Source: Tubiluchus corallicola (lineage: Eukaryota; Animalia; Priapulida). From it: a stretch of 64,000 nt of DNA. Below the pieces are notes generated by a model. That model saw only the letters and a list, made by a program, of their open reading frames with translations. It made no database searches and was not told the origin of the DNA. Position 1 is the stretch's first letter, and each line of letters begins with the position of its first letter. The stretch spans positions 62,001 through 126,000 of the forward strand of contig JAQGDQ010000261.1 in NCBI GenBank assembly GCA_030141605.1, in the 5' to 3' direction. Of this stretch, positions 693-53,000 are shown in pieces. Both the position numbers and the translations under genes were made by a program.

Positions 693-17434
<16,742 letters not shown>

Positions 17435-19045: not shown

Positions 19046-21318
19046 ACAAGTTTAACTCTGAACTATTCCATAGCGTTACATTTTGATAGTGCTTGATAAG
19101 CTTCTGGAAACGTTGAGGAAGACTTTATTGGCTAAACCATCTAGCTTCTCCAAGTGTTTAGTACGAGTGGTACGTCAATTGTAATGTTGCCTCTTTGTGT
19201 AACTTTAGAAATATACAAGTGGCAATGTGTTGACTAGCAAAATATTCAACTGGCGAAACGTGCACTGGCCTAAACTGGCGAAGTGTGTACTGAGAAAATC
19301 TACAGCTGGCAAACTGGTGTTCTGGAAAACATATTGGTTACTTGGCGGAAGGTTACAAAAGGAGTAGAGGACTAGATCTCCACAACAACTGGTGAAATGC
19401 CTCCAGGATTTAACATGTAGGCAGCTCCTTATCCTTAACATTTACTGCAATTTACGCCAATTCTTATAGTTTTAGGTTTATCAGATGCTTATCCAACATG
19501 TAACGCCAGCCAGTTTTTACTGTGTTATTCTGAGAAAACTCGTAAGTATTTGCTGTTGCTATTGAAAATACTGTGCATTGTGGAAATGAAGGCAAACTAG
19601 ATTCATGGTTCTGTGTAGTGATTTCTTCCAAGATAATTATCATTTGCGACACAATGACGAACTACACTGCATGCACGCACAATTATACACGATACATTTA
19701 AAAGAACACAGCATTGTATAAAAATTTAAAAAACACTGAGCTATATTATAACACGCACGCACACAACTGCCTTCCATTGTACAGGGGTGATACGTGAATT
19801 TCCTATAATAATAATTTAATAATTTAAGTATTGAGACTTTGTAATTTAACCTAATTGGGAGGTAGAATTCTTGTGATTTAATCAATTTTAATGTTAAACT
19901 TGGACTGTTTAATTAATTGGAGATTAAATTTTCAAAATCAACCCTGAATTATCAAATGCACAACGTGATAAAGATGACAGAATTGCTCAATTGTAAGAAT
20001 TTACTAGAGATATACAAACTGATATAGTGAACAACTATTGGAGCAAAAAACAGATTTTAGGTAGGATCTTAGCTCAAATAACGAAAGAACGTAAACAATT
20101 GAAAGCCTCCAAAAAGACTTAGACTTAAAGCTTCAATACTAAACCAAATTAAATCAGAAATTTTCATAAGTCAGTTTGGTAAACATTGACAGTTGAAGCG
20201 CAGACAATACCATTATTTTCCGGGACGATGACATTTCCTTTAGAGATCTTATTACGAACATTTGAACGTGCTACAGTTTTAACAGTTCACTTGCCCAACC
20301 TAATTATAATGAACCAAGCAAATTTTTATTGTTGAAATATTTCAATTCTGCTATCCCTGTTAAAGATTGTAAATGTTAATTTTATAGTCAATGAACCACT
20401 ACTACTCCTAGTTAGTTAATATGCGCCTCCCGGACACCAATTTTCAATGTGAAATTGAGACAATTGAGACAAATTGGGACAAAATGGGAATTCGTTTGAA
20501 TTTCTTCAAATAGATGGCGCTGACGCAAATTTCACGTACGCGCCGTAGATTCGCCACACCGCCACATTTGAAATGCGTTTGTCACAAATTATTTACATTT
20601 GGTGTGAAATTTTTACCATTTTTTCGAGAGAGAAACATGAGAACTCGACAGCAAACGGTAAGCAAATTTATTTCCGACTTTCTGACACGCAATAGCGGGC
20701 CAGCGCTCCATAAATGCGAACAGTATGAGCGCTTCGGTACAGTAGCCCTATAATATTTTTTATCATTAAAGTTTGTCGCCGAGTTAAATTATTCTGACTG
20801 TTAATACGTTAACAAAACGGCTCAGTTAGCACTCGAGGGTCGTTCAGCAGTGTGTTATAATAGTGAAAAAGTGAAATAATAGAGCAAAAACAATGCAAAC
20901 ATTGAAGTCATGTTGAGCTAGCCTAGTAGTACCAGAGAGTCAGTTTGGGAGATAAAAATTGATGAGCCACTAACATAACTCGTGTGCACTTGTGTGAAGG
21001 TGTTGTAATTATGTATACTAAATACTATATTTTTTATAGCACGTACTGTGCGTGTTGTGCTAGACGACATAGCACAACGTGGTCAACTACAACATGTACC
21101 ACCCCCGGTTGAGCCAGTTGTCGTGAGTAAGCCAAGCACGAGTCAGCTAAGGCCAGCTGGTCCTCAGGTTAATTCTATTTTTTTTTTGTACCTCAAGTGT
21201 TCTTTCTAATTTTTAGAAACTGTAATTTTTAGAAACTGCACTTTAGAAACTGACTATAGTATGACTATGTTGAATATAGTGTTTATATGATTTTAACGCT
21301 GGTTTTATTTCTCTATAG

Positions 21319-21980
21319 AGTCTCTTGCCTTCAGCTTGGAAAGAAGCCATACCAAAGAGGGAACAGGCCTGGGTCTCTAAGGCTGTTTTCATCATTGGAC
21401 CTGGTGGTAAATGGCAGTTGAAGCCGAACATCCAGATGTGGGTTCATCCACCACAACCTCTAATGATTCATAATCAGCCACCAGCGTCCACGGCTCTGTT
21501 TTTTGCAAGACCATTATTTCTTTGGATGCCATTTCGTTTCTGGAAGGTGAGACTGCAGTGTGTAAAACCTGACCGAGTAGGACAAATGGCTCTTTGTGGA
21601 TATTAAAAGACAGTTCGCCAAGTAGTCGATGTGGATGGCACCTTTTTTCTTGCTACTGACTATCTGGAATGTAGAGTATGCCATACCAAAGTTGCAGCAT
21701 GGTGCCCAGGAATACTACAACAAATCGATGTAGGCCATCGTCCGCAGTTTCCTGCACTGCTAACATACAGGTATGCATGTAGCAAGCGTCTTCTGATGAT
21801 GGATTCCACGTGTGCAGAAGGTGCTGGATTGACGGAGATGGCTGCTGGACGGATGAGACGTTACAGCGAGGCGAACCAAGATCCGCCACATCTGATGTAC
21901 GTAGACAGGGATTGCTGTTCATCGACAGGAACAAGGAGTAAGACACATGCCATGTTTCACTTGTGGAAGAACCTGATTGT
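21319..21980 (+). pseudogene. DUF6729-like / DDE transposase pseudogene fragment (copy 1)
   Basis: W.HPPQP, LFLWMP..FWKV.L.C, GY*KTVRQVVDVDG..LATDYLEC..C, QFPALLTYRYAC, MDST, EGAGL..MA.G..RY, LMYVDRDCC; stop and deletions. Confidence 0.75.
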
Positions 21981-22224
21981 TTTTTGTATTTGTATTGTAT
22001 TGTTTTATATTTTGTATTATTTTTTGCTGTGCACAGTTTTTTGGGGGTTTTTTAATATTTTTTTCTGCCCCCACCAAACCAACTACCAAACACTACTAGC
22101 TATAGCTCATTTTCATTCCCTTCCCATCCATGCAGTTTTTATTTTTTTTCTGCCATGCTGTGAACTGTATAACTTGTATATCTGTATTTTTTTCTGCACT
22201 GTATTCTTTAAATTATATGCTTAG

Positions 22225-22856
22225 TACAGTTTTTTGCTTAAACATGTAAATCTGTATTTTTTCTGCACTGTATTTTGACTGTAATGTTTCTGTAATTTGT
22301 GGTTTTCATTTATATTGTGATTGTGGTTTCATTCTAACCAGAAGTACAGTTTTTTTGCTTAAACATGTAAATCTGTATTTTTTCTGCACTGTATTTTGAC
22401 TGTAATGTTTCTGTAATTTGTGGTTTTCATTTATATTGTGATTGTGGTTTCATTCTAACCAGAAGTACAGTTTTTTTGCTTAAACATGTAAATCTGTATT
22501 TTTTCTACACTGTATTTTGACTGTAATGTTTCTGTAATTTCTGGTTTTCATTTATATTGTGATTGTGGTTTCATTCTAACCAGAAGTACAGTTTTTTTGC
22601 TCAAACATGTAAATCTGTATTTTTTCTGCAGTGTATTTTGACTGTATAATGTTTCTGTAATTTCTGGTTTTCATTTATATTGTGATTGTGGTTTCATTCT
22701 AACCAGAAGTACAGTTTTTTTGCTTAAACATGTAAATCTGTATTTTTTCTGCACTGTATTTTGACTGTATAATGTTTCTGTAATTTGTGGTTTTCATTTA
22801 TATTGTGATTGTGGTTTCATTCTAACCAGAAGTACAGTTTTTTTGCTTAAACATGT
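22225..22856. repeat. ~121-bp tandem repeat (about 5 units) inside copy 1
   Basis: Unit CTGTATTTTGACTGTAATGTTTCTG...CAGAAGTACAGTTTTTTTGCTTAAACATGTAAAT repeated. Confidence 0.93.
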
Positions 22857-24427
22857 AGTATAAATGTAGTTTTTAAAACTGTCTATCTTGTTCTATCAGA
22901 TAATAAAATAGAATAGTAAAATAAAATAAAATAAAATCAGTAGTATAGTTATAAAAATGTTTAAAACCTTAAAAATAAAACCTTATAACCTTACAATGTT
23001 GTTTTCTTGTCTATGTTAGAATTGATTTTGCTGAATAAATAAATTATACACAGTATATAAAGTGCCAAATAGCACCAGAAACTTGTGAAAAGTAGTTTAT
23101 GCACGTTCAATTATGCATTCAAAAAAATTACAGACATTAACTGAATTAAAACGTTACATTCTGATTATGTTGAATGAGTTGCAAGGCACAAACTGTTAAA
23201 AATGAATTACAAGGTGAATTACTGTGAGAATTACCACATAAACAGGTATTCAATGCATCTACTAAACGTACGAAAAGCTATACTATTGCTTATGCTCAAT
23301 AAATTACCTTCGTCTGCTGACACGCCCGTGCTGTAACGAGGGGCCCCGGGTTCGCACACCGCTGCGGCGAAACTTTTTCACCTCGCACAAAAGTAGCGCG
23401 ATTTTTTTATCAACGCGCGTACGGGACGAAGGAAGGTCCGAGCATGAAGTTCCACCGATTTCGGCTCGAATCCGCGCGAAAAAAAGTGACCTCGGCAGGA
23501 CGCGAACCCGCAACCCTTTGCGTGCGACAGAGAAGATTGGGCGGGTGCCTTAGGCGCCTCCCGGACACCAATTTTCAAGGTGAAATTGAGACAAAATGGG
23601 AATTCGTTTGAATTTCTTCAAATAGATGGCGCTGACGCAAATTTCACGCACGCGCCGTAGATTCGCCACACCGCCACATTTGAAATGCGTTTGTGACAAA
23701 TTATTTACACTTTGTGTGAAATTTTTACCATTCTTTCGAGAGAGAAACATGAGAACTCGACAGCAAACGGTAAGCAAATTTATTTCCGACTTTCTGACAC
23801 GCAATAGCGGGCCAGCGCTCCATAAATGCGAACAGTATGAGCGCTTCGGTACAGTAGCCCAATAATATTTTTTATCATTAAAGTTTTTCGCAGAGTTAAA
23901 TTATTCTGACTGTTAATACGTTAACAAAACGGCTCAGTTAGCGCTCGAGGGTCGTTCAGCAGTGTGTTATAATAGTGAAAAAGTGAAATAATAGAGCAAA
24001 AACAATGCAAACATTGAAGTCATGTTGAGCTAGCCTAGTAGTACCAGAGAGTCAGTTTGGGAGATAGAAATTGATGAGCCACTAACATAACTCGTGTACA
24101 CTTGTGTGAAGGTGTTGTAATTATGTATACTAAATACTATATTTTTTATAGCACGTACTGTGCGTGTTGTGCTAGACGACATAGCACAACGTGGTCAACT
24201 ACAACATGTATCACCCCCGGTTGAGCCAGTTGTCGTGAGTAAGCCAAGCACGAGTCAGCTAAGGCTAGCTGGTCCTCAGGTTAGTTCTATTTTTTTATAC
24301 CTCATGTGTTCTTGCTAATTTTTAGAAACTGTAATTTTTAGAAACTGCACTTTAGAAACTGACTATAGTATGACTATGTTGAATATAGTGTTTATATAAT
24401 TTTAACGCTGGTTTTATTTCTCTATAG

Positions 24428-25090
24428 AGTCTCTTGCCTTCAGCTTGGAAAGAAGCCATACCAAAGAGGGAACAGGCCTGGGTCTCTAAGGCTGTTTTCA
24501 TCATTGGACCTGGTGGTAAACGGCAGTTGAAGCCGAACATCCAGATGTGGGTTCATCCACCACAACCTCTAATGATTCATAATCAGCCACCAGCATCCAC
24601 GGCTCTGTTTTTTGCAAGACCATTATTTCTTTGGATGCCATTTCGTTTCTGGAAGGTGAGACTGCAGTGTGTAAAACCTGACTGCGTAGGACAAATGGCT
24701 CTTTATGGATATTAAAAGACAGTTCGCCAAGTAGTCGATGTGGATGGCACCTTTCTTCTTGCTACTAACTATCTGGAATGTAGAGTATGCCATACCAAAG
24801 TTGCAGCATGGTGCCCAGGAATACTACAACAAATCGATGTAGGCCATCGTTCGCAATTTCCTGCACTGCTAACATACAGGTATGCATGTAGCAAGCGTCT
24901 TCTGATGATGGATTCCACGTGTGCAGAAGGTGCTGGATTGACGGAGATGGCTGCTGGACGGATGAGACGTTACAGCGAGGCGAACCAAGATCCGCCACAT
25001 CTGATGTACGTAGACAGGGATTGCTGTTCATTGACAGGAACAAGGAGTAAGACACATGCCATGTTTCACTTGTGGAAGAACCTGATTGTT
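24428..25090 (+). pseudogene. DUF6729-like transposase pseudogene fragment (copy 2)
   Basis: Same motifs, same TAA and deletions as copy 1. Confidence 0.75.
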
Positions 25091-25289
25091 TTTTTGTATT
25101 TGTATTGCATTGTTTTATATTTTGTATTATTTTTTGCTGTGCAGTTTTTTGGGGTTTTTTTAATATTTTTTTCTGCCCCCACCAAACCAACTACCAAACA
25201 CTACTAGCTATAGCTCATTTTCATTCCCTTCCCATCCATGCAGTTTTTATTTTTTTTCTGCCATGCTGTGAACTGTATAACTTGTATAT

Positions 25290-25776
25290 CTGTATTTTTT
25301 CTGCACTGTATTTTGACTGTGTAATGTTTCTGTAATTTCTGGTTTTCATTTATATTGTGATTGTGGTTTCATTCTAACCAGAAGTACAGTTTTTTTGCTT
25401 AAACATGTAAATCTGTATTTTTTCTGCACTGTATTTTGACTGTGTAATGTTTCTGTAATTTCTGGTTTTCATTTATATTGTGATTGTGGTTTCATTCTAA
25501 CCAGAAGTACAGTTTTTTTGCTTAAACATGTAAATCTGTATTTTTTCTGCACTGTATTTTGACTGTGTAATGTTTCTGTAATTTCTGGTTTTCATTTATA
25601 TTGTGATTGTGGTTTCATTCTAACCAGAAGTACAGTTTTTTTGCTTAAACATGTAAACCTGTATTTTTTCTGCACTGTATTTTGACTGTGTAATGTTTCT
25701 GTAATTTCTGGTTTTCATTTATATTGTGATTGTGGTTTCATTCTAACCAGAAGTACAGTTTTTTTGCTTAAACATG
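25290..25776. repeat. ~122-bp tandem repeat (about 4 units) inside copy 2
   Basis: Same unit with a copy-specific GACTGTGTAATG variant in all units. Confidence 0.93.
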
Positions 25777-26844
25777 TAGTATAAATGTAGTTTTTAAAAC
25801 TGTCTATCTTGTTCTATCAGATAATAAAATAGAATAGTAAAATAAAATAATAATAAAATGGAAAATAAAATAAAATCAGTAGTATAGTTATAAAAATGTT
25901 TAAAACCTTAAAAATAAAACCTTATAACCTTACAATGTTGTTTTCTTGTCTATGTTAGAATTGATTTTGCTGAATAAATAAATTATACACAGTATATAAA
26001 GTGCCAAATAGCACCAGAAACTTGTGAAAAGTAGTTTATGCACGTTCAATTATACATTCAAAAAAATTACAGACATTAACTGAATTAAAACATTACATTC
26101 TGATTATGTTGAATGAGTTACAAGGCACAAACTGTTAAAAATGAATTACAAGGTGAACTACTGTGAGAATTACCACATAAACAGGTATTCAATGCATCTA
26201 CTAAACGTACGAAAAGCTATACTGTTGCTTATGCTCAATAAATTATCTTCGTCTGCTGACACGCCCGTGCTGTAACGAGGGGCCCCGGGTTTGCACACCG
26301 CTGCGGCGAAACTTTTTCACCTCGCACAAAAGTAGCGTGATTTTTTATCAATGCGCGTACGGGACGAAGGAAGGTCCGAGCATGAAGTTCCACCGATTTC
26401 GGCTCGAATCCGCGCGAAAAAAGTGACCTCGGCAGGACGCGAACCCGCAACCCTTTGCGTGCGACAGAGAAGATTGGGCGGGTGCCTTTGCGCCTCCCGG
26501 ACACCAATTTTCAATGTGAAATTGAGACAAAATGGGATTTCGTTTGAATTTCTTCAATTAGATGGCGCTGACGCAAATTTCACGCACACGCCGTAGCTTC
26601 GCCACACCACCACGTTTGAAATGCGTTTGCAACAAATTATTTACATTTTTTGTGAAACTTTTGCCATTCTTTCGAGAGAGAAACATGAGAAATCGACGGC
26701 AAACGGTAAGCCAATTTATTTCCGACTTTTTGACACGCAATAGCGGGCCAGCGCTCCATAAATGCGAACAGTATGAGCATTTCGGTACAGTAGCCCAATA
26801 ATATTTTTTATCATTAAAGTTTGTCGCCGAGTTAAATTATTCTG

Positions 26845-27051
26845 CGCCATTAATTAAAGAATGTACCAGCTTTGTCTCAAACACCAAGACGACAAGAATA
26901 AATTTAACAACTTTATTATAACTCGCAAAGCAACGAGGTTGTAACTAGAAAGATGAGCGCAACCGGGAAAAACAAAGAGGTTGAAAACAAAAGAGCAACT
27001 TTGCAAAAGTAGTAAAGTTGATAAAACTAACAACACGCATGTATACTGGCG
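26845..27051. mobile_element. 207-bp segment unique to copy 3, possible MITE
   Basis: Absent from copies 1/2; CGCCA...TGGCG ends, flanked by CTG on both sides. Confidence 0.5.
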
Positions 27052-27527
27052 CTGATTGTTAATACGTTAACAAAACGGCTCAGGGTCGTTCAGCAGTGTG
27101 TTATAATAGTGAAAAAGTGAAATAATAGAGCAAAAACAATGCAAACATTGAAGTCATGTTGAGCTAGCATCGTACCAGAGAGTCAGTTTGGGAGATAGAA
27201 ATTGATGAGCCACTAACATAACTCGTGTGCACTTGTGTGAAGGTGTTGTAATTATGTATACTAAATAATATATTTTTTTATAGCACTTACTGTGCGTGTT
27301 GTGCTAGAAGACATAGCACAACGTGGTCAACGTGGTTGAGCCAGTTGTCGTGAGCAAGCCAAGCACGAGTCAGCTAAGGCCAGCTGGTCCTCAGGTTAGT
27401 TCTAATTTTTTTGTACCTCATGTGTTCTTGCTAATTTTTAGAAACTGCACTTTAGAAACTGACTATAGTATGACTATGTTGAATATAGTGTTTATATAAT
27501 TTTAACACTGGTTTTATTTCTCTATAG

Positions 27528-28325
27528 AGTCTCTTGTCTTCAGCTTGGAAAGAAGCTATACCAAAGAGGGAACAGGCCTGGATCTCGAAGGCTGTTTTCA
27601 TCATTGGACCTGGTGGTAAATGGCAGTTGAAGCCGAACATCCAGATGTGGGTTCATCCACCACAACCTCTAATGATTCGTAATCAGCCACCAGCATCCAC
27701 GGCTCTGTTTTTTGCAAGACCATTATTTCTTTGGATGCCATTTTGTTTCTGGAAGGTGAGACTGCAGTGTGTAAAACCTGACTGCGTAGGACAAATGGCT
27801 CTTTGTGGATATTAAAAGACAGTTCGCCAAGTAGTCAATGTGGATGGCACCTTTCTTCTTGCTACTGACTATCTGGAATGTAGAGTGTGCCATACCAAAG
27901 TTGCAGCATGGTGCCCAGGAATACTACAGCAAATCGCTGTAGGTCATCGTCCGCAGTTTCCTGCACTACTAACATATCTGTTGCCACGTGTGCAGAAGGT
28001 GCTGGATTGACGAAGATGGCTGCTGGACTGATGACATGTTACAGCGAGGCGAACCAAGATCCGCCACATCTGATGTACGTAGACAGGGATTGCTGTTCAT
28101 CGACAGGAACAAGGAGTAAGACATATGACATGTTTCACTTTTGGAAGAACCTGATTGTTCAGCTAGATATCTACCACTTCATTAGAAGAATAGGATCCTG
28201 TGCTCTCGAGTCTCATCCGCTCTATGCACAATTCATGAGGCAAATCTCAGCAGCCATATTCGAGTGGGATGACCAAGACGTGCATAAACTCATCGCAGCC
28301 AAACGGTCGGAGCTGGAGTTCAGTT
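27528..28325 (+). pseudogene. DUF6729-like transposase pseudogene fragment (copy 3), retains DxxH region
   Basis: YVDRDCC...QLDIYHFIRRI..C..ESHPLY..FM..IS..IFEWD..D...L..AKRSEL. Confidence 0.78.
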
Positions 28326-28911
28326 GTAAACTTTGTATTGTATTTTTATATTTTGTATTATTTTATTTCTTGCTGTGCTCAGTTTTTTGGGTTTTTTTTT
28401 AATATTTTTTTCTGCCCCTACCAAACCAAATACCAAACATTACTAACTATAACTCATCATCCATGCAGTTCTGCCATGCTGTGAACTGTATAACTTGTAT
28501 ATCTGTATTTTTTCTGCACTGTATTCTTTAAATTATATGGTTAGTGCAGTTTTTTTGCTTAAACATGTAAATGTGTATTTTTTCTGCACTGTATTTTGAC
28601 TGTAATGTTTCTGTAATTTATGGTTTTCATTTATATTGTGATTGTGGTTTCATTCTAACCAGAAGTGCAGTTTTTTTGCTTAAACATGTATATCTGTATT
28701 TTTTTGCACTGCATTTTGACTGTAATGTTTCTGTAATTTGTGGTTTTCATTTATATTGTGATTGTGGTTTCATTCTAACCAGAAGTGCAGTTTTTTTGCT
28801 TAAACATGTATATCTGTATTTTTTTGCACTGTATTTTGACTGTTGTTGTTGGTTGTTGTTGTTGTTGGCATCCTTCTGTCTCGAAAGACAATGGATTGTG
28901 CGCCAAGAGAG

Positions 28912-31900
28912 TCAGTTATTAATAAAATTGATGGAGCTGCAGCGTCGACTGTGACTGAGCAGTCCGATCCTTGAGCGGCAGTTCCGGCTGCAGGTTACAC
29001 ATTGGAAGGCTGTTTCATCCGGATGAGGTAGGGCATCTTTCTGGTGCCTGCGAGTCCTTTTATCCTCTTGTTTTTCCTCCCTCGTTTTCTCCGCTCTGTT
29101 AATGGCTGTCCTAACAGCAGATTTCCAGTTGCTTCGATCTGCCGCAAGCGCCTCGTAATTTGCTGGTGTCATGCCGCCTGCCTTGAGGTCCCGTTTACAT
29201 ACATCTTTGTAGCGGAGCAGTGGCCTCCCGGTGGGTCGGGAGCCAGTAGCAAGCTCACCGTACAGAATGTCCTTGGGCAATCTGCCATCCTGCATGCGGG
29301 AAACATGGCCTAGCCAGCGCAAACGTCTGTTGGTGAGTATGGCATACATGCTAGGGATTCCAGCTTTTGCTAGCACATCCTTGTTGGTTATGTGCTCCTG
29401 CCATGAGATGCCCAGGATTCTTCTGAGGCAGCGTTGGTGGAAAGCATTGAGCCTGCGTTCTTGATGGCTATACAGAGTCCAACTCTCGCTCCCGTACAAC
29501 AGTGTGCTCAGTACACAGGCTTGGTACACCTGGGACTTTGTCCTGATAGTCAGCATGTTGTTTTCCCACACCCTCTTTGTTAAGCGAGCCATCGTTGATG
29601 AGGCCTTGCCGATTCTGGAGTTCAGTTCTGTGGCCAAGCTAAGATTGCTGGAAATAACAGAACCAAGATAGGTGAAATCTTCCACCACGTCAAGGCAGCA
29701 GTCATCGATGGAGATGTGAAGGGCTGGGGAAACATTTTGGCCTAAAACCTTGGTCTTTTGGATGCTGATTGTGAGGCCAAACTCACTGCAGGCATGGGCA
29801 AAGTTGTCAATGAGGCCTTGGAGGCCGGCTTCAGTGTGAGCTGTCAGTGCGGCATCATCTGCAAACAGCATTTCACGAATGAGAACTTTGCGAACCCGTG
29901 ACTTTGCTCGGAGACGAGAGAGGTTGAACAGGCTGCCGTCGCTTCGTGTGTGTAAATAGACTCCCTCTTCAGTTTCTTTAAATGCATAGCGCAGCAGCAG
30001 AGAGAACAGGATACCAAAGAGGGTTGGGGCGAGGACACATCCTTGTTTAACTCCGCTTTTGATTGGGAATGGGTGTGAGGAAGAGCCGTCGGACTGAACA
30101 GTACCTTTCATTTCCTCGTGGAAGGAAGTAATCAGTCTCAGCAGCTTTGGGGGGCATCCAATTCTCTGCAGGAGTGTAAACAGGCCCGATCTGCTAACCA
30201 AATCAAATGCTTTGGTCAAGTCAATGAATGCTATAAACAGGGGCCGTCGTTGTTCGCGGCATTTTTCCTGGAGCTGTCTTAGAGAGAATATCATGTCGAT
30301 GGTGGATCTCTCTGCCCTGAAACCGCATTGTGCTTCTGGGTAAACCCGTTCGGCGAGACGGTGGAGTCTGTTTAGTAGCACGCGGGCAAAGGTCTTTCCC
30401 ACGGTGGAGAGGAGGGATATTCCGCGATAGTTGTTGCAATCGCTCCGATCGCCTTTATTTTTGTAAAGGGTAATGATGTTGGCATCACGCATGTCCTGAG
30501 GCACAGTACCTTCATCCCAGCATTGTAAAAGGAGGTCGTGCAAATGCTCGAGGAGACAGGTTTGTTTACCTGCTTTAATGGCCTCTGGGGGTATACCATC
30601 ACTTCCAGGAGCTTTGCCGCTCGCCAGAGAGTCGATAGCTTTGATGAGCTCCTCACTGGTAGGTGGATCGTCGAGCTCCTCCATGACTGGCAAGGGGGTC
30701 GTGTATTCCACAGCTCTTTCTGTGACAGTGGTTTGTCTTGAGAACAGCTTTTGGTAGTGTTCTGCCCATCTCTCCATTTGTTTGGCACGGTCAGTGATGA
30801 TTTCTCCAGTGGTGGACTTCACAGGGGCAATCTTGGTGATACTGGGGCCAAAGGCCTTCTTCATTCCCTCATACATGCCGCGAATATTACCACGGTCAGC
30901 TGACGTTTGGATACTCACGCATATAGACTGCCAGTAATTGTTTGCGCACTGCCGGGCAATCCGCTGTACGTCGCTTCTGGCCTTCCTGAGAACTGCGAGT
31001 GTGCTTTCACTAGGATTTGCTTTGTAACTGAGGAGAGCAGTCCTTTTGTGGGAAATAGCTGGCTCAATGTCCATGATTCCAGCTTCAAACCAGTCTGGGT
31101 TCACTCTCTCTCTTTTTCCGAAGGTGTTGAGAGCAGACTTGTAAGTTACATCGCGTATGTGACTCCATCTTTCATCTGCGTTACCGGTTGGGTGGTCCTT
31201 GAGGGCTTCTTTCATGGTATCAGTATAGCGTTTTACTAGCTCAGGAACTGCGAACTTGGCAGTGTTAATGCGAGGTCGTCCTTTTGGCTTTGAATGATGG
31301 ATACGTTTTGGTTGTAGACGTACCTTGCTGGCGACCATTGAGTGGTCCGTGTCGCAATCTGCGCTATGGTAGCTGCGTGTGTTGTTGACACAGTTTAGCG
31401 AGGATCTTCGAGTAATGACGAGATCCAATTGGTGCCAGTGGCGAGATCTGGGGTGACGCCAGGACACTCTGTGGATGGGCTTTGTGGGGAAGAATGTATT
31501 CGTGATGCATAAATCATGATATGAGCACAATTCCAGTAATCTTTGCCCGTTTTCGTTCAGTTTGCCAACACCAAAATGACCAATACAGCGGGGCCAGTGG
31601 GACTGGTCGGAGCCGGTCCGAGCGTTGAAGTCTCCAAGCAGGAACAAGTACTCAGATGCGGGAATATTTTTGATGGCGGTCTCAAGCTCGGCGTAGAATT
31701 CATCTTTATTTTCTGCAGTCGCTAGGAGCGTTAGAGCATAAACGCTTAGGATATTTACGGGCCCTGTGGTGGTTGTGAGGCGAAGAGAAAGGGTACGAGC
31801 AGTGCCCTCTGAAGGTGGTTCGATAGCAGAGAGCAGAGAGTTCCTCACTGCAAAACCCACGCCATGCATGCGGTGCTCCTCTGGTGCCCTTCCTTGCCAG

Positions 31901-32148
31901 AAGAATGTATAGTCCTCTTCCTTTAAGCTGCCATTGGATGGAAGTCTGGTTTCCTGCAGCGCGGCAATATCGATGTTGAGCCGCTTGAGTTCATTGTTGA
32001 TGATGGCTGTTTTCCTTGCATCGTCAATCTGACTTGGATCATTGGCGATCCCAGGACATAAGGTCCTAACATTCCAGGTTGCCAGTCTAAGCGCTGGCGG
32101 CTTTAATTTCTTTCTTTTCTTTTTGCTTGGTGCAGGCTTTGCGGTATG
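28912..32148 (-). CDS. RTE polyprotein: AP endonuclease + reverse transcriptase + C2H2 finger (stop-to-stop frame, 1078 codons)
   Basis: LATWNVRT, ALQETRL, LGDFNAR, DTDH, YRGISLLS, FIDLTKAFD, GVKQGCVLAP, LFADD, FTYLGS, CVTC..H..RC; frame is open 93 codons upstream of the ATG at 31869. Confidence 0.93.
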   Translation of the reverse strand, partial: HTAKPAPSKKKRKKLKPPALRLATWNVRTLCPGIANDPSQIDDARKTAIINNELKRLNIDIAALQETRLPSNGSLKEEDYTFFWQGRAPEEHRMHGVGFAVRNSLLSAIEPPSEGTARTLSLRLTTTTGPVNILSVYALTLLATAENKDEFYAELETAIKNIPASEYLFLLGDFNARTGSDQSHWPRCIGHFGVGKLNENGQRLLELCSYHDLCITNTFFPTKPIHRVSWRHPRSRHWHQLDLVITRRSSLNCVNNTRSYHSADCDTDHSMVASKVRLQPKRIHHSKPKGRPRINTAKFAVPELVKRYTDTMKEALKDHPTGNADERWSHIRDVTYKSALNTFGKRERVNPDWFEAGIMDIEPAISHKRTALLSYKANPSESTLAVLRKARSDVQRIARQCANNYWQSICVSIQTSADRGNIRGMYEGMKKAFGPSITKIAPVKSTTGEIITDRAKQMERWAEHYQKLFSRQTTVTERAVEYTTPLPVMEELDDPPTSEELIKAIDSLASGKAPGSDGIPPEAIKAGKQTCLLEHLHDLLLQCWDEGTVPQDMRDANIITLYKNKGDRSDCNNYRGISLLSTVGKTFARVLLNRLHRLAERVYPEAQCGFRAERSTIDMIFSLRQLQEKCREQRRPLFIAFIDLTKAFDLVSRSGLFTLLQRIGCPPKLLRLITSFHEEMKGTVQSDGSSSHPFPIKSGVKQGCVLAPTLFGILFSLLLRYAFKETEEGVYLHTRSDGSLFNLSRLRAKSRVRKVLIREMLFADDAALTAHTEAGLQGLIDNFAHACSEFGLTISIQKTKVLGQNVSPALHISIDDCCLDVVEDFTYLGSVISSNLSLATELNSRIGKASSTMARLTKRVWENNMLTIRTKSQVYQACVLSTLLYGSESWTLYSHQERRLNAFHQRCLRRILGISWQEHITNKDVLAKAGIPSMYAILTNRRLRWLGHVSRMQDGRLPKDILYGELATGSRPTGRPLLRYKDVCKRDLKAGGMTPANYEALAADRSNWKSAVRTAINRAEKTREEKQEDKRTRRHQKDALPHPDETAFQCVTCSRNCRSRIGLLSHSRRCSSINFINN

Positions 32149-32752
32149 CTATTCGGAGTTTATCCTAAGCTCCAAGCACCCATTGGAGCAGGCAACCGTG
32201 ACGGGTCGGCACCTAATTGGCTGGGGGCTGCCCAGCTTAGGCGGGCGGTAGCCGACCATTGGGATGCGATGATCCCTCCCACCGTCGGAGGCAACCCGTA
32301 GCGCCCGAGCTCACGCCAATTCGCTCTAGGCTTATAACTCGTAACTGCTGCCTCCCGTGTTGTTTCTGTCACTGAAGCAGTGACACTAAAGTGGCCTCTC
32401 CAGGGCGCACGCCTGGGCAAGATATATGGAGATCCTGAGTTGCCCAGACATCAGGAACCCCCTCTCTTCCTCCCTGGTGTAGTCCAAAGGAAAGCAGAGC
32501 GATACGTTTGGCACCAGGTTGGCTGCAGGAGCAGCCGGAGTCAGTGAGCATGCTGCACTGGTCCGCCTTCGGGGCTCCACTCCTGATTTGGAAGGTTTAC
32601 TCCTCTACACATGGCCGTTGGGTCGCTTGACCTCCTCCGCCCTCTAGCCGTTGGCTGCTTATGCAGCTCCTCCGCCTAGTGTCGAGATACAGTGTAGGCA
32701 TCCCGCAAGCATTTTTATCGGTTATAGCGCCAATAGCTCGCTTTCACACCTA

Positions 32753-32912
32753 GCTCATTTAGTAAAACCAGTGTCGCCACGAGGAGGCAGAGCATAGGAG
32801 TTTGTCTGGCAGAGGTGGTAGAGTTGCACAAGCCTCTTGGAGCCACTTTGTAGGTCACTGGGAGCTCATCCCCGAGTGGCCAGCTCCGGCAATACCAAGA
32901 CCTTTAGACACC
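32753..32912 (-). ncRNA. HDV-like self-cleaving ribozyme at the RTE 5' end (predicted)
   Basis: P1 GGUGUC/GACACU with G1-U wobble; P3-L3 GCC UCCUCGU GGC; P1.1 GG; candidate catalytic C in ACUAA; P2 GCUC/GAGC. Confidence 0.7.
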
Positions 32913-34951
32913 CTGTATTTTGACTGTAATGTTTCTGTAATTTGTGGTTTTCATTTATATTGTGATTGTGGTTTCATTCTAACCAGAAGTACAGTTTTTT
33001 TGCTTAAACATGTAAATCTGTATTTTTTCTCCACTGTATTTTGACTGTAATGTTTCTGTAATTTGTGGTTTTCATTTATATTGTGATTGTGGTTTCATTC
33101 TAACCAGAAGTGCAGTTTTTTTGCTTAAACATGTAGTATAAATGTAGTTTTTAAAACTGTAGTCCTGTCTATCTTGTTCTATCAGATAATAAAATAGAAT
33201 AGTAAAATAAAATAATAATAAAATGGAAAATAAAATAACATCAGTAGTATAGTTATAAAAATGTTTAAAACCTTAAAAATAAAACCTGATAACCTTACAA
33301 TCTTGTTTTCTTGTCTATGTTGGAATTGATTTTGCTGAATAAATAAATTATACACAGTATATAAAGTGCCAAATAACATCAGAAACTTGTGAAAAGTAGT
33401 TTATGCACATTCAATTATGCATTCAAAAAAATTACAGACATAAACTGAATTAAAACATTACATTCTGATTATGTTGAATGAGTTGCAAGGCACAAACTGT
33501 TAAAAATGAATTACAAAGTGAATTACTGTGAGAATTACCTACATAAACAGGTATTCAATACATCTACTAAACGTACGAAAAGTTATGGTATTGCTTATGC
33601 TCAATAAATTATCTTCGTCTGCTGACACGCCCGTGCTGTAACGAGGGCCCCGGGTTCGCACACCACTGCGGCGAAACTTTTTCACCTCGCACAAAAGTAG
33701 CGCGATTTTTTTTATCAACGCGCGTACGGGACGAAGGAAGGCCCGAGCATGAAGTTCCACCGATTTCGGCTCGAATACGCGCGAAAAAAAGTGACCTCGG
33801 CGAGACGCGAACCCACAACCCTTTGCGTGCGACAGAGAAGATTGGGTGGGTGCCTTTGAATGCTGTTACTCTCCTGATCTTCATGGAAGGAAGATCCGAT
33901 ATTGCCATCACCATATTCAGAATCTGTGTCATCATCAGAACTCACATCTGTCTTTGTTGGCGTCAACATAGACTTGGGCGTGGTGGCACCCACTAGAAAG
34001 CTCTCCACTGAAGCTATTTTCTTAGATTTCTTCTTTGCTTTAGGCATTATAGCCTATTTGAGTCACTCGATCGATGATTACAGGCAAAAAATCGATTTAA
34101 AATACGTTATATTACAAATTTTTCGGTAATATAATCGAAAATATTTCCCAGCTTAAATTTTATAAACCGGCGCCATTTGCGACCGTCGAGAATTATGACA
34201 TAATGAAACGTAAAACTAAATTTGTTTTGGAAAAAAGTGACTTTATAATAATGATGGATGCTGCTTGACAATTTACAATGTATCGTTTACAATAATATCA
34301 TCATTATTATTAGCTCCATTAATATCATCATAACATTAAACTATCTAACGCTTTAACGAGAGAAACTATGTAGGGCACATAACTCGCTAACCCGTTTGCT
34401 TAGTAGAAAACAATTATTTGTCCAAGAGGGAGTGAAAAGGATTACCTGTCTGTGAAGCATGACAAAACAAAAAATTATATACCTTAAACAAATGTTGGAA
34501 TCGCCTTAAGAAGTGCGCTTATTTCAGTTCAAAGAAGATTAATATTGGCAAATATTAATTCTACTAGCTCAGGTGTATAATAAATTATTCAATTGACGTT
34601 TTTAATTATTATTATTATTATTACATAAACAAGGAGAACGGACGGTGTCAGTAGGCTTAACGAACTCAATTCGCGACCTGTCTCTAGTGTCCTACTTGGG
34701 CAGCCCCTGTACGACATGTCGTGCTTGGGCTAACTCATGTACGCCAAATGTCCTACTTTGGCTAGTGGTTTACTCGGCGCCCAACAACCCATATTGGTTA
34801 TACGTGCTAATGTGTAATCTGTATAACTCTGATACTCAATGTTAAACTAATAAGCTATAATGCATTAACTTAATATATTATTATAGCCTAAAATTATTTA
34901 TGTTTTAAAATTTAAGTTGAAAAGGTTTGCAGCTGTTTAGAACAACTTGTT

Positions 34952-41000: not shown

Positions 41001-44000
41001 TTTCACAATGTGGATTTTTGGCCCCTTTATTAATTTGTATATATTATTTGGCATTAGCTCATGAGCACAACCAGGTTAAATGTTGAAATGTTGCACTTAC
41101 TACATCACACCATTGTATTTAAATAAATAGAATCATGTCTATACTTAAGTGGGTGCTGGCATTTATTTTTATTTTTAGATATTGTATATATAGCTGTGTG
41201 GAATGCAGGACATCTAGATGCAATCAAACTAGCTCTTCATGCTGGCAGGCCTGTTCTTTGTGAGAAGCCTTTATGTTTATCACAAGAAGAAGCACACGAG
41301 GCAATTTCACTTGCCAGGGAGAAGCAGTTGTTTCTGATGGAGGTAAAGTGCATGTTCAAACTGTCGATGTGATATTTAGTTATATATGCATTTTAATAGC
41401 TGTGCATGTTATGCAGTTACCTGAGCAAGCTAATCTGCTTGTGTATTTACCAGAATAAATTTGACAGATTGCCAAACGTGGGAAAATTAATTTGGCTTTA
41501 ATTTGTATTTTGAATTCAGCGAAGGGCAGGCTGTGCTAGCCTTGCAATACCACAGTGTTTACCTGGCAGAATTTTTGAAACTTTGTTAATTGGCAGTGTT
41601 TTCGTTGAGTTATTTATTTATTTATATTCTTATTTATTCTCAGCCACTTTAACGCTTAATAACTTGTAAGTCTTACAAGCCAGCATGACCAAACTTACAG
41701 GGTTGGTAGCCCTGGGCGGGGAGCGTACAACAGTATAGAACCGCTGACCACTGGTCAAAGGGGGAAGGTTAGTGGGCATTGGTCAGTTTTTCCTTTAGGT
41801 CGCATCTGCTGCTAGGGCTTTCATTTTTTTCTAATTTTTTTTCTTAAGTATTTGTGTACTGCGGGGCAGGTGTGCACCTGGGGTTTTAAAAAGCTGACAA
41901 GCTTTACACGTCCAAGTGAGGAGCCAAAATGCAATATGTGAAATGCACTTTTCATTTATTCAAGCAATTCAATAAAAGAAAATAAGCACTTTCAAAAAAG
42001 CTGTCATCTCTTCAATTTTTAAGGCTCAATTTTATAACTATTGTTTGCAAAATCTTCGGTTTCTGACCTCACCAGAAACATTGTCAACTAGTTTATTATT
42101 ATTTATTCTCCGCAACTTTAATGCTTAATAACTCGCAAGCCTTGCAAGCTAGGGTAACCAAATTCGCAGAGTTGGTCGCCCTTTGCACAGGACGTACAAC
42201 AGTGTGATGACCACTGACCACTAGTCAAGGGAGGAAGGGCAGTGGACGTCAATCACTTTTTCCTTTTATTTTTTTCTTTTTATTTATTTATTTTTTTTTT
42301 TTCTTTTTTTTTCTTTTCTTTCAATTTATTTTTCTTTAGGACCCATCTGCTCCCATAGTTTTTGAGCTAGGGCCACAATACTTGGAATGATGCTAGGCAG
42401 GGGCATCGTGTACCAAAAAAAATTGGGGGGGGGGGTCCGACTGTATATAATGGTGGAACTAAACTGTTTAAAAACGTATGATTTTGAAAAAAAATAAACA
42501 GTATTTTGCGTGCAAGAAAAACAATTTATTTATTCCCAACTGGCATTTAACTTAAAGCTATAGCAACGGAAACTTAATTAAAATTAAAAATTAAAGTAAA
42601 ATTTAATTAAGTATTTATTAGCTGTCAGGAATCCGACGCAGAACATCACTCTAGAAGAGCTCAACCACAGACTTCAAGTCCATATTCTTTGTTTTCTCAG
42701 CCTCAACTGCAAGGATCATCAGGTCACTCAGTCGTGACTGACTCATTGTACTGCGGAGAGCATTCTTGACATCGTTTAAGAAATATAGCTAAAATCGCAA
42801 CGAAAACTAGCAAAGATTTTCCTAGCAGGAGAAAAATGATGAAATGTGCTCAAAATCACGCCCTTTTATGCAGCAAACTCGTGGGAAAGAGTCCCTAAGG
42901 AGTAGCAAAGAGTCGGTAATGTCCAATCAGGAGGTGGCTGAGCCGTGGCTCATCAATTTGTATCTCCCAAACCGACTCTCTGGTACTAGGCTAGCTCGAC
43001 AAACTGACTCTCTGGTACTAGGCTAGCTCAACATGACTTCAATGTTTGCATTGTTTTTGCTCTATTATTTCACTTATTCTCTATTACAACACACTGCTGA
43101 ACGAAGCTCGAGTGCTAACTGAGCCGTTTTGTTAACTAACAGTCTTTTGTGCAAAGACGCTAATGCTACTCAACGAGCTGCTTTGTTAACTGTTCCTGCC
43201 TGCCTCCTGAATAGATTACATGCAAACAAATTAACTACATCCTGACTTTCAGGTAAACACATACTCATGCTCATACTGTTCGCATTTATGGAGCGCTGGC
43301 CCGCTATTGCGTGTCAAAAAGTCGGAAATAAATTTGCTTACCGGTCTCATTACGAGCCGCTGACACCCTTCAAATTTTTGACATTTTCTAAAAAAATTGG
43401 GGGCCCTATGGCACGACGCCACTGATGCTAGGTGGGGTTGTCGCTTTGCACATCACAATTTATGGGACATGCGCATATAGGAAAATTTTCTGCTAGGGGG
43501 CAACAACCAAAAAATGGGGGTCGGGAACTAAAGTGCACCGAGTGTTGAGCAATAGTACCTTGTAGCACATCAAATTAAAGGTCTTGATGAGGCGAATCAA
43601 ATGACATGGGTTACAATGAGAATAGTTAATCTGCGACACCGCCAGGGGGCAAAAACCGAAAAATGGGGGTCGGCAACAGAAATGCATAGAGTGTCTATGA
43701 ATAGTACCATGTACCATATCAAATGAAAGGTCTTGATGAAGCGAATCGAATGGTATAGGTTAGAGTGTGAATCGTTAACCTGTGACCCAGTTAGAGGCAA
43801 AATAGGGGTCGAGGAGACAAATGCCTTCCAGGGTCCTACCAAAAGTAGGTTGTTGTATATCAAATGAAAGGTCTCAATGAGACACACTGAATGATATAAA
43901 TTATCCCAAGATTGTCGACCTTTGACCCATGGGTGATGGGCTGAACAGTTAAATGCTGAGGTTTCATTGTGAAGTGCACTTTCAAGAAACATTGTTAACT

Positions 44001-50000: not shown

Positions 50001-53000
50001 TAAAAAAATTAGGGTCACTCAATTCCTGTTACATTATTGGACTAGAAGCCAATGTTTTTGCATGTGCAGGTAATTGTTAACCTGGTTATGGTGGTCAGGT
50101 GTAATCGGGGTTATGGTGGTCAGGTGTAAGCGGGGTTATGGTGGTCAGGTGTAAACGCTGTTATGGTGGTCAGGTGTAATCATGGTTATGGTGGTCAGTT
50201 GTAATTGCGGTTGAGGTGGTCAGGTGTAATCATGGTTATGGTGGTCAGGTGTAATCACGGTTATGGTGTGCAGGTGTAAGCTTGGTTATGGTGGTCAGCT
50301 GTAAGCATGGTTATGGTGTTACGCTCACATATGTGATGTGAATTTTTCCTTTCTGTTAACAAACAGTATGTTCTAGTGACATGAAAGATTGCCTCTTTTG
50401 CAGGTGTGGATGTTACTGTGTCCTTCTCTGTGCAGTACAGCAAAGGCCGCTTTGCTTCTTTTCTGATTACTTTGGGCACCAGTCTTCCAAATGAAGGTTG
50501 TGTGTTTGGAACTGATGGTGATATAAAGGTTACTATTTCCTATTAAATCATTTCCATTTTTATGAATTCTAATTGTTGAAAATTTGTGCAACTTTCACAA
50601 ATTTAGTTCTAAATGATGGAAGTTTGAGGTCATGTGAACAAAGCTACATCAAGGTAATTAAAATCATAGTTATTATAGAATTGTTGCAGGTACCTATTTT
50701 TTCAAACACTGGAAAGATTAATAATAATCATGTTGGGTTCTTTACTAAATTAAGTCCACATGCAAATTTGAGTTTTTAATTGATTTAATATGTATATAAC
50801 CGATAGAATTCCTTTTACAAAGATCATATCTAGTTTTTTGGTAGCTGAAACAATGTAGTTTCAAAGGTTGCCAGGCATTTGACCTTTAACAAAATTTATG
50901 AAATCGTAGATTTTACAGTATTTGTAGAAATTTTCAACTTATTGTTTGACTTTTTTTTAATGATTGTTTCTTTCCTCCAGCTTTTCATGCTTAATACACT
51001 ACAAGCAGTTTGTGTAAATTGATAGTGATAATATTTCCTGGAACAGAGGTGCTTTTGTGATGATTTCTGTTCTTTTCTCTTGTGATTTATTTGCTCTCTC
51101 ATTTTTTAATGATTGCATTCAGTGCTCCGTTTCGTTCTTTCTCGCAGTTTTTTATTTGTCATGTATCCAGTGGTTGTGTATTATGCATTGCATAGCATGT
51201 TACTTATTGCATACCACTGAGCAGTTTATGTGGGCTATATCATTCTTCTGACAAATATTGACCTTTCATAATTTGAAGTTGCATAGAATTCGGATTTTAT
51301 TGGTGTTGAGGAAATTAAGTTTCCAGTAAAAGTTTATTGCTTTCATTAATGTTGGTTAACTCGTGACCATCTTCAAAGCCCAGTTACATCGGTTGCAGAC
51401 ATTGGACAGACATAATTATAATGAAATTGTCATGAGTAAGACTGTAAGAGTTTAAATGTTACTACAAAGATTTTATTTCATTTAAATAATTTGGCACCAT
51501 TATGAAAAAGAACTTGTTCTTTGCAATCCAGAACAACTCAAGAGTCAAATTTCTAGCTAAAATGGTAATAAATACAAACAGTACTAACTTGTTTACACCT
51601 GTGAATAATGGTAGTAAATGTAAATAGTGCTTCACATTTGTAATAAACAGGATTAAACTGTCCACAGTGTGCAGTTATAAGAAAACTGGAAGCATATAGC
51701 TAGACTTTGTAATAAATATGAACAATATTAACTGCAAACAAGCATGAATAAGTGTGTTCCAAAATTTAGAAATTGTCTGTGATCTTTTGAGAGATTTTTT
51801 TACACTCTTTAAAAAATAATGTTAAAATTAGCTGTTTGTTGTTATATTACAATAATCTACAGCTATGAAAAAATTCTTTTTACTTCAGTTGAATATTGTA
51901 TGAATTAAATTACAAAAAAACCATTCACTTACATAAAGCTTAAAAAGTCTTGAAATTTTATACAACTTATATACTGAATACAGAGCTTGCGTCGACGGTA
52001 ACTTTGTAAAAAACATGTAAATTTAAACTCCCGCGATGACCGCCAGATACAGCCATGTTGACGATAAGTCATTTGAAACAAATTTACATAACACTGAGTA
52101 AAGTTTGAAAAAATAACCAGAGCATTCGTAGCACACGTCAGTAACTATGTAATATATTAAATTACTGTATCTTGTCAATAAGATTAAAAATATGTTTCTT
52201 TGTTAGTGAATTGTGCACCATGGATGTGAGTCAACGACAATTTACCAATTGGTGAAAACATTTTAAATAATTAATAATTTTCTTTTCTAGTTACATATGT
52301 CTTTCAAGCAGGTAAGCGAAATGATAAATAATATAACTTTGCATGGACAGTTTTTTGGGACATAGTTTAACATTCCCTTTTGTTTGTGATTTACGTTGTG
52401 CGTACATTTTGTCATGTAATGGCGCAGTCAGAACAATATTGCGGGAGATTTAAAATGAAAACAAACAAAAAATCCTTTTAATGCGAGTATGATATTCTCA
52501 TAAAATTGCTATAAAGTAATATAATTTCTTAAGGCGATATTTCTGAAATCTACTACAGGTATCCCCTTTCTTGTCTTTTAAGTCAACATTGAGGAGCACA
52601 ATACGAAGGCAACATTTTAACACCATATGAAATATTTTGAGGCAACAATGCACAGTAAGTATTACCTATGCAATTACAAAGTACTATGAAAATAAAACTT
52701 AACATAAGCACTGCCAGTTTTCTCATTTTTATGTTTACACCACATGTAGTCAATTGTACAGCAGAAATGGTAGCAAACATAGTAGAGAAGTCAACCCAAA
52801 AAGAAGTAAAAATTGTGATTTTAAAAATTCATACTGTATTCAACTGAAGCAAGAAGGTGTTGTAACAACTGACTGAATAAAAATCATGCACATGACCATT
52901 GTTCTTGTGTAATGAAATGGCAGTTGTGTGGCAAGTGTTTTTATTTCCGCTTAAGCAAATAAATTGGCGCCATATGATAATTATAATACATGTCCGCATT

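What the first reader, a model, noticed from the sequence alone, without database searches (positions are those of the whole stretch)
20422..33856. Head-to-tail array of an uncharacterised DUF6729-type transposon with precise end-to-end junctions and no TSD
Seen: three ~3-kb units joined end to end (GGGTGCCTT|AGGCGCCTCC at 23551/2; GGGTGCCTT|TGCGCCTCC at 26488/9). The outer edges of the array coincide with unit ends, so the repeated unit is the element itself. Termini show only a very short imperfect inverted repeat (GGCGCC..CCAATTTTC vs GGCACC..CCAATCTTC), and the outer flanks share no duplication. Each unit carries an intron-containing gene remnant and its own ~121-bp satellite. Recalled knowledge: the protein motifs match DUF6729-containing proteins, and the MDST / YVDRDCC / LDIYH motifs suggest an RNase-H-fold DDE transposase with a DxxH signature like MULE/hAT/KDZ relatives. 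I do not know of a described mechanism for this family. Inference: a transposon family that inserts at its own ends or integrates as concatemers.
Basis: partly seen in the sequence, partly recalled or inferred. Interest (0 to 1): 0.75.

Follow-up and report, generated by a model that had tools for sequence, protein, structure and literature searches.

The report
Stacked Dada transposons outside U6 genes
Three broken copies of a Dada DNA transposon, a known group that normally inserts into U6 small-RNA genes, sit nose-to-tail here with 6-7-base spacers and no U6 gene at either edge, likely because each copy's end looks like the target and drew in the next copy.

Summary
The three-unit head-to-tail array is real, but the family is known: Dada (Kojima & Jurka 2013). 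True units are 20427-23550, 23558-26487 and 26494-33855. They are separated by TAGGCGC and TTGCGC; TTGCGC is the reverse complement of the Dada-U6 target duplication GCGCAA. Each right end carries the Dada-U6 box CAGAGAAGA 14 bp inside, as U6 does before its target, and matches the published Capitella Dada-U6 end at 18 of 20 bases. Full-length DUF6729 relatives share Dada-U6_DR's cysteine and aspartate spacings. Among 80 metagenome loci, 6 abut U6 halves and 3 (probably 4) show the same 14+6+14 head-to-tail junction. All three window copies are internally deleted and non-autonomous. Two points go beyond the papers read. Neither outer flank is U6, and four further right-end flanks in short-read contigs are non-U6. 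A model of a relative's catalytic core best matches the IS256-family copy-out/paste-in transposase ISCth4 (Z 10.2). Likely mechanism: repeated insertion at a 6-mer beside an existing copy's end. Verdict: a relaxed-target variant of a known superfamily.

The parts
20421..20426 (+). 6-mer ATGCGC outside the left end of unit 1 (5 of 6 to TTGCGC, the reverse complement of the Dada-U6 TSD GCGCAA); the DNA beyond is not U6
   Evidence: 5/6; next 20 nt 2/20 to the U6 3' half of L009; no U6 in the window
20427..23550 (+). Unit 1: internally deleted Dada element, 3124 bp
20441..20449 (+). Degenerate left sub-terminal box TTTTCAATG, 14 bp inside the left end (6 of 9 to TCTTCTCTG); equivalents at 23572-23580 (5 of 9) and 26508-26516 (6 of 9)
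21319..21981 (+). Transposase remnant of unit 1: DUF6729 region, MDST, YVDRDCC; one in-frame stop; DxxH, catalytic E region and C-terminus missing
22223..22857 (.). 121-bp satellite, 5.2 copies (unit 2: 25279-25778; unit 3: 28543-28843 and 32913-33135)
23528..23536 (+). Dada-U6 sub-terminal box CAGAGAAGA, 14 bp inside the right end (also 26465-26473 and 33833-33841)
   Evidence: motif from PMC3706591
23551..23557 (+). Junction 1 spacer TAGGCGC (7 bp)
23558..26487 (+). Unit 2: same internal deletions as unit 1, 1.3-1.9% diverged from it; transposase remnant 24428-25090
26488..26493 (+). Junction 2 spacer TTGCGC, the exact reverse complement of the Dada-U6 TSD GCGCAA
26494..33855 (+). Unit 3: different deletion derivative (keeps LDIYH and about 230 bp more transposase), 3.2-4.5% from units 1 and 2; remnant 27528-28330
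26845..27051 (.). 207-bp segment only in unit 3, ends CGCCA/TGGCG, flanked by CTG on both sides
28844..32912 (-). RTE-type LINE (label recalled) inserted in unit 3's satellite; 15-bp duplication at 28829-28843 and 32913-32927; open 1078-aa endonuclease/RT frame 28912-32148
33856..33861 (+). Right outer flank TTGAAT: not a copy of the left 6-mer and not U6; the same flank is seen in run X3

Best explanation
This is an array of three internally deleted Dada DNA transposons with Dada-U6-type ends, which likely grew by copies inserting, one after another, at the GCGCAA-like 6-mer beside an existing copy's left end. Shown: unit boundaries, the 6-7-bp spacers, the CAGAGAAGA box 14 bp inside each right end, loss of the catalytic C-terminal half, and non-U6 outer flanks. 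Inferred: a Dada transposase supplied in trans binds a CAGAGAAGA-like box and joins the element's right end to a GCG-containing 6-mer 14 bp away. U6 offers that geometry, and so does the left end of another copy, so copies stack head to tail with one 6-mer between them. In this host the target rule appears relaxed to non-U6 sites. The unmatched right flank likely reflects the one-sided events described for Dada. Units 1 and 2 may instead be a later local duplication.
For: - The right end read inward matches the Dada-U6_CT end at 18 of 20 bases (Fig. S2, compared by eye) and the 23 U6 bases before the target at 17 of 23.
- Junction 2 spacer is TTGCGC with 14+6+14 geometry.
- Homologues carry Dada-U6_DR spacings: C4-D1 133-139 vs 135, D1-D2 64-69 vs 68, and C-terminal CCHC 3/10/9 in 6 of 18 proteins examined, 3/9/9 in a seventh.
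- Of 80 metagenome loci, 6 abut U6 halves (L001, L019, L020, L059, L062, L009), and DUF6729 scores at E 6e-80 in L020 and 2e-51 in L059.
- 3 of 80 (L002, L018, L047) have the same head-to-tail junction with GCGCAA, L071 probably a fourth. L002 holds two junction copies that differ by 3 nt.
- PMC3706591 reports tandem Dada-U1 copies separated by the TSD.
- In this species' short-read contigs, 3 of 4 other right-end flanks end their 6-mer in CGC (window background 0.5% per site), and one has TCTTCTCTG exactly 14 bp further.
- A 371-nt contig with 21 substitutions bridges a further head-to-tail junction.
- Unit 3 has reciprocal deletions and 4.4% divergence, so it came from a separate source copy.
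Against: - The window's left-end box is only 5-6 of 9, and its 23 nt match U6 at only 9-10 of 23, so it is a weak mimic of the target.
- Junction 1 has 7 bp, not the canonical 6-mer.
- The outer flanks are not duplicates, and neither is U6; the 2013 paper says non-U6 flanks occur 'never at both ends'.
- D2-to-E spacing is 187-193 here vs 176 in the paper; the paper's alignment file could not be read.
- 2 of 5 right flanks (TTGAAT, TGATAT) lack the GCG core.
- No empty allele and no autonomous copy from this species were seen.
Confidence: 0.7

Rival explanations
1. Copy-out/paste-in-like pathway. One end attacks 6-7 bp outside the other end (of the same or a neighbouring copy), as IS256-family transposases do, giving end-to-end junctions with a donor-derived spacer. 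The spacer is carried to new sites, so the left 6-mer is cargo and the right flank is the untouched target.
For: - Best structural match of a relative's core is ISCth4, Z 10.2, rmsd 3.2 over 189 residues; next row 6.8. ISCth4 junction spacers are 6-8 bp (PMC7780238 passages).
- GCGC sits beside the left end in 3 of 3 window units and in deep contigs of runs X2 and X4 although the flanks are not U6.
- Kojima 2022 notes that Dada-tA replaces the target with TTGCGC, sometimes on one side only, and suggests the 6-mer travels with the element (Fig. S4).
Against: - A shared fold does not show the pathway, and Foldseek gave no significant match.
- 3 of 4 other right flanks have CGC, which points to target choice rather than cargo.
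- Double insertion explains tandem spacers without circles (PMC5932611 passages).
- No circle was observed.
Confidence: 0.17
2. One dimer formed by double insertion, and unequal crossing-over then copied a unit (unit 1 from unit 2, or the reverse).
For: Units 1 and 2 share both internal deletions and differ by only 1.3-1.9%; 70 sites group them against unit 3, versus 20 and 15 for the other two groupings. Expansion of dimers is documented.
Against: It still needs a Dada double insertion first. Junctions 1 and 2 differ (7 vs 6 bp). Units of one deletion subfamily could also insert twice.
Confidence: 0.1
3. Ordinary segmental duplication or an assembly artefact that happens to break at unit ends.
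For: No long reads were available; no listed short-read contig spans the whole laid stretch.
Against: Units differ in deletions, insertions and satellite copy number. The same junction geometry recurs in 3-4 unrelated families. The right flank is confirmed in run X3, and a diverged extra junction exists.
Confidence: 0.03

Closest known systems
Dada-U6 families (Dada-U6_CT Capitella, Dada-U6_DR/U6N1_DR zebrafish, Dada-U6_DPu Daphnia); PMC3706591, PMC8869645
   Same: CAGAGAAGA box 14 bp from a GCGCAA 6-mer; right end 18 of 20 to Dada-U6_CT; no true terminal inverted repeats; intron-containing transposase of the same family; internally deleted derivatives exist; one-sided non-target flanks exist.
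   Different: No U6 at either edge or in the window; left box degenerate; transposase reads towards the AGG end, whereas the paper gives Capitella's as same-sense with U6; a three-copy array with its own satellite.
Tandem Dada-U1A/U1B copies in zebrafish (PMC3706591 Fig. S3)
   Same: Head-to-tail Dada copies joined through the target 6-mer.
   Different: A different target lineage; described as two cases, not as a recurring feature across hosts.
P-element and hobo tandem dimers by double insertion (PMC5932611)
   Same: Head-to-tail junction holds one target duplication; dimers can expand.
   Different: Those elements have terminal inverted repeats and loose targets; here the element's own end appears to recreate the target geometry.
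IS256-family ISCth4 (copy-out/paste-in; PMC7780238, PDB 6xg8)
   Same: Closest solved fold to the modelled core (Z 10.2); end-to-end junctions with 6-8-bp spacers.
   Different: Bacterial, with inverted repeats, 8-bp TSD and circle intermediates shown; none of these was shown for Dada here.
Zisupton / Kyakuja / Dileera (KDZ)
   Same: Large DDE transposases with cysteine clusters (partly recalled).
   Different: Zisupton has terminal inverted repeats and 8-bp TSDs (PMC12730594 passages); no KDZ-named Pfam family was hit by the 15 homologues scanned.

Membership tests
Dada superfamily | Transposase homologous to Dada transposases (D, D, DxxH, E; N-terminal CCCC and C-terminal CCHC fingers) | tested here: met
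   Cys/Asp spacings of full-length homologues match Dada-U6_DR; the window protein aligns to the U6-flanked L020 protein at E 8e-35; YVDRDCC and LDIYH present in window copies
Dada superfamily | Position of the catalytic E as in Dada-U6_DR (176 after D2) | tested here: inconclusive
   The conserved RG(S/T)TSLE glutamate lies 187-193 after D2; Dataset S1 unreadable; region deleted in the window copies
Dada superfamily | No terminal inverted repeats; short sub-terminal inverted repeat | tested here: met
   Right box 9 of 9 in 3 of 3 units, left box 5-6 of 9, both 14 bp from the ends
Dada superfamily | 6-7-bp GCG-containing target sequence at junctions | tested here: met
   Spacers TTGCGC and TAGGCGC; left flank ATGCGC
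Dada superfamily | Direct comparison with Repbase Dada consensus sequences | not testable with these tools
   No Repbase here; the link rests on published termini and U6-flanked loci
Canonical Dada-U6 insertion | Inserted in a U6 snRNA gene on at least one side | tested here: not met
   No U6 by Rfam in the array region or the window; left flank 2 of 20 to the U6 3' half; right flank 6 of 23 to the U6 5' half. Filed as Dada with U6-type ends, not as a canonical U6 insertion
Canonical Dada-U6 insertion | Matching 6-bp duplication on both outer sides | tested here: not met
   ATGCGC vs TTGAAT
Canonical Dada-U6 insertion | Other copies in this genome lie in U6 | tested here: inconclusive
   None of the listed loose ends is U6, but 2 rows were not shown and contigs overlapping the end by only about 30 nt can be missed; no genome held
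IS256-like copy-out/paste-in element | Circular intermediate with donor-derived spacer | not testable with these tools
   Only fold likeness and spacer length
Zisupton | Terminal inverted repeats and 8-bp TSD | tested here: not met
   Spacers are 6 and 7 bp and no terminal inverted repeat is present; criterion

The most novel reading that the evidence does not exclude
Dada is a eukaryotic copy-out/paste-in-type transposon. Like IS256/ISCth4, one end attacks 6-7 bp beyond a second end-like site and makes an end-spacer-end junction. U6 is targeted because it mimics an element end. The donor's 6-mer rides along, which would explain head-to-tail arrays, one-sided flanks and Kojima's unexplained target replacement in one mechanism. 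This host's family has dropped U6 and uses any end-like site.
Probability: 0.18. Interest if true: 0.7.

Novelty: new variant of a known kind. Interest (0 to 1): 0.33.

Why it matters
The main result is a correct label: Pfam's unknown domain DUF6729 marks the N-terminal zinc-finger region of Dada transposases. A full-text search for DUF6729 found 0 papers, so this link was not in the library searched. Dada is one of few sequence-specific DNA transposons and has been proposed for targeted delivery, so copies outside U6 and stacking at its own ends bear on how strict the targeting is. The recurring 14+6+14 junction and the ISCth4-like core make the open question of why Dada sometimes leaves no true duplication testable by circle PCR and empty-allele comparison.

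Tried and rejected
Searches that gave nothing:
- No genome is held for this window, so solo vs tandem copies could not be counted genome-wide.
- ARAGORN found no tRNA.
- Rfam gave only sub-threshold hits in the array and none in the window at gathering score.
- Viral and prokaryote genome collections held no confirmed relative (0 of 122 and 0 of 55 candidate stretches).
- Sequence search of PDB: one chance-level hit.
- No RNA holder was listed among sequencing runs.
- The supplement of PMC8869645 gave 0 hits for one terminal motif, DUF6729 and YVDRDCC; I did not check how its sequence file is laid out.
- Earlier findings of this scan: none.
- Searches for Dada with tandem/head-to-tail and with copy-out/IS256 each listed one paper. 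I read passages of the second (PMC9587614): it raises copy-out for KolobokP, not Dada. The first was seen only as a listing.

Weak results:
- The first structure model (14 sequences, pLDDT 53) was too poor. Foldseek gave no match at E<=0.001 for either model, though ISCth4 appeared among the weak rows.
- A quick FastTree tree on two short fragments (55 of 91 rows plus the window) put the window with four fish proteins (0.93). U6-flanked loci fell on both main branches, so it does not fix the target lineage.

Readings considered and dropped:
- Harbinger-like GGCRCC ends with a TWA duplication, and Helentron-like T|T insertion: the flanks did not fit, and the Dada geometry fits both junctions.
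- Zisupton: see the membership test.
Full report
Observation. The window (animal-like DNA with introns and LINEs; no genome held) contains three related units head to tail. Units 1 and 2 differ by 1.9% (29 of 1536 sites) in the 5' part and 1.3% (9 of 688) in the 3' part. Unit 3 differs from them by 4.4-4.5% and 3.2-3.8%. Units 1 and 2 share their internal deletions. Unit 3 keeps about 230 bp of transposase that they lack and lacks 31 bp that they keep, so neither form derives from the other. Each unit has a 121-123-bp satellite. Unit 3 also holds a LINE at 28844-32912 with a 15-bp duplication and an open 1078-aa endonuclease/RT frame, and a 207-bp extra segment.

The protein. Two pieces of unit 1 hit Pfam DUF6729. 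A search for longer proteins returned 16 homologues among 488 candidates, mostly from fish. A profile search found 6322 representatives at E<=0.001. The 15 homologues scanned carry only DUF6729 above cut-off. Their alignment shows KxDST, YxDRDCC, LDxWH and RG(S/T)TSLE motifs. All three window copies stop before the last motif, so they are non-autonomous. A model of the catalytic part of one unnamed homologue (77 sequences, pLDDT 80) best matched ISCth4 of the IS256 family among 48161 chains: Z 10.2, rmsd 3.2, 189 residues. The next rows were foamy-virus integrase at 6.8 and Hermes at 6.7. Foldseek found nothing significant. The model starts after the first catalytic aspartate.

Identification. 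Of 281 pattern matches in metagenomes, 173 were confirmed and the best 80 kept. In L019 the DNA beside the element was U6 snRNA. Rfam confirmed U6 in 3 of the 20 loci scanned, and a motif scan of all 80 found U6 halves beside an element end in 6 (L001, L019, L020, L059, L062, L009). L001/L019 and L059/L062 are near-identical pairs, so these are 4 families. This is the hallmark of Dada-U6. I read parts 1-3 of 4 of PMC3706591 and its Figs S2, S3 and S4; its main figures and Dataset S1 were not available. It defines Dada as DDE/DxxH elements without terminal inverted repeats, with 6-7-bp TSDs. [quoted passage not shown] The homologues match Dada-U6_DR's spacings: C4-D1 133-139 vs 135, D1-D2 64-69 vs 68, and C-terminal CCHC 3/10/9. 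The D2-E distance differs (187-193 vs 176) and could not be resolved. U6-flanked L020 and L059 encode DUF6729, and the window protein aligns to L020's at E 8e-35.

True ends. CAGAGAAGA occurs 4 times in the window, 3 of them exactly 14 bp inside the three right ends, the same distance as in U6. The right end read inward matches the published Capitella end at 18 of 20 bases (by eye). Junction 2 reads box-14-TTGCGC-14-degenerate box, and TTGCGC is the reverse complement of GCGCAA. Junction 1 has a 7-bp variant, TAGGCGC. The left flank is ATGCGC and the right flank TTGAAT. The same junction occurs in 3 of 80 loci (L002, L018, L047; 0 in shuffles) and probably in L071. L002 has two junction copies differing by 3 nt, which favours a tandem array over a single circle. 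Tandem Dada copies separated by the TSD were already reported for Dada-U1.

Other copies in this species. Short-read contigs from 4 runs (at most 2 samples) show the window's right flank, a further head-to-tail junction on a 371-nt contig with 21 substitutions, and four other right-end flanks. Their 6-mers are TTGCGC, TGTCGC, ACTCGC and TGATAT. None is U6. One has TCTTCTCTG exactly 14 bp beyond the 6-mer; it may be a genomic look-alike or the end of a sister family. Two loose-end rows were not shown, and contigs with very short overlaps can be missed, so U6-flanked copies are not excluded. Left-end contigs mostly begin at GCGC; one flank matches the 6-mer at only 3 of 6.

Departure from the literature. 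The 2013 paper says Dada-U6 copies can have a non-U6 flank but never at both ends. Here neither flank is U6. PMC8869645 (parts 1-3 of 5 read; term search) kept only copies flanked by small-RNA genes, so off-target families were filtered out by design. It reports one Dada-tV in a hAT element, does not use the word tandem, and notes that target replacement implies Dada may not always make TSDs.

Mechanism. Shown: ends, spacers, boxes, deletions and flanks. Inferred (0.7): a transposase acting in trans joins the right end to a GCG 6-mer 14 bp from a CAGAGAAGA-like box; a resident copy's left end offers such a site, so copies stack. This matches double-insertion tandems of P and hobo (PMC5932611 passages). 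The unmatched right flank fits the one-ended events proposed in the 2013 paper. Against this, the left end here mimics U6 poorly (9-10 of 23). The main rival (0.17) is an IS256-like route in which the 6-7-bp spacer comes from the donor (ISCth4 spacers 6-8 bp; PMC7780238 passages). It fits the fold, the constant left-side GCGC and target replacement, but no circle or empty allele was seen. A later duplication of unit 1 or 2 (0.1) and an artefact (0.03) remain.

Novelty. DUF6729 appears in 0 papers of the library; only 2 papers hold Dada with U6 snRNA and DNA transposon. Searches for Dada with tandem/head-to-tail and with copy-out/IS256 found no paper on this point. Repbase reports and subscription journals were not searchable. 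Verdict: a non-autonomous, relaxed-target variant of the known Dada superfamily; interest 0.33.

Noticed in passing
window 42398-43424 (minus): hAT-type non-autonomous element (label recalled from its ends and a C-terminal remnant) with an 8-bp duplication ATGCTAGG. It shares about 270 bp with the Dada 5' region, and that stretch has far higher summed contig depth than the rest of the unit. One element captured part of the other.
   Followed up: partly
window 28844-32912 (minus): LINE with an open 1078-aa frame, likely recent; weak hit (24.7 bits, below the gathering score of 37) to an HDV-like drz-agam-1 ribozyme at 32749-32810 near its 5' end.
   Followed up: partly
L001, L019, L059, L062 vs L002, L018, L020: The same Daphnia-type terminus lies upstream of the transposase in the first group and downstream in the second; two families 68% alike inside share 95% identical U6-plus-end segments. 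This suggests internal inversion or end swapping among Dada-U6 elements.
   Followed up: no
window 23330-23510 (and equivalents in units 2 and 3): GC-rich right end with two GGTTCG motifs on opposite strands, each followed by a T run, resembling Pol III B-boxes (recalled); ARAGORN finds no tRNA.
   Followed up: partly
window 26845-27051: 207-bp segment unique to unit 3 with 5-bp inverted ends and CTG on both sides: a small inserted element, or a deletion in units 1 and 2.
   Followed up: no
window 33865-34053 (minus) and about 19900-20420 (plus): The right flank reads as the lysine-rich start of a frame running into the array; the left flank looks like a decayed coding stretch on the other strand. 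They do not obviously belong to one sequence.
   Followed up: partly
window 13907-16965 (plus); 50083-50318; 56959-57749: A second LINE remnant with an RT domain, and 25-bp and 27/54-bp satellites.
   Followed up: no
P0017: A 1177-aa homologue is labelled as from hagfish, whereas PMC8869645 found no Dada in the agnathan genomes it surveyed.
   Followed up: no
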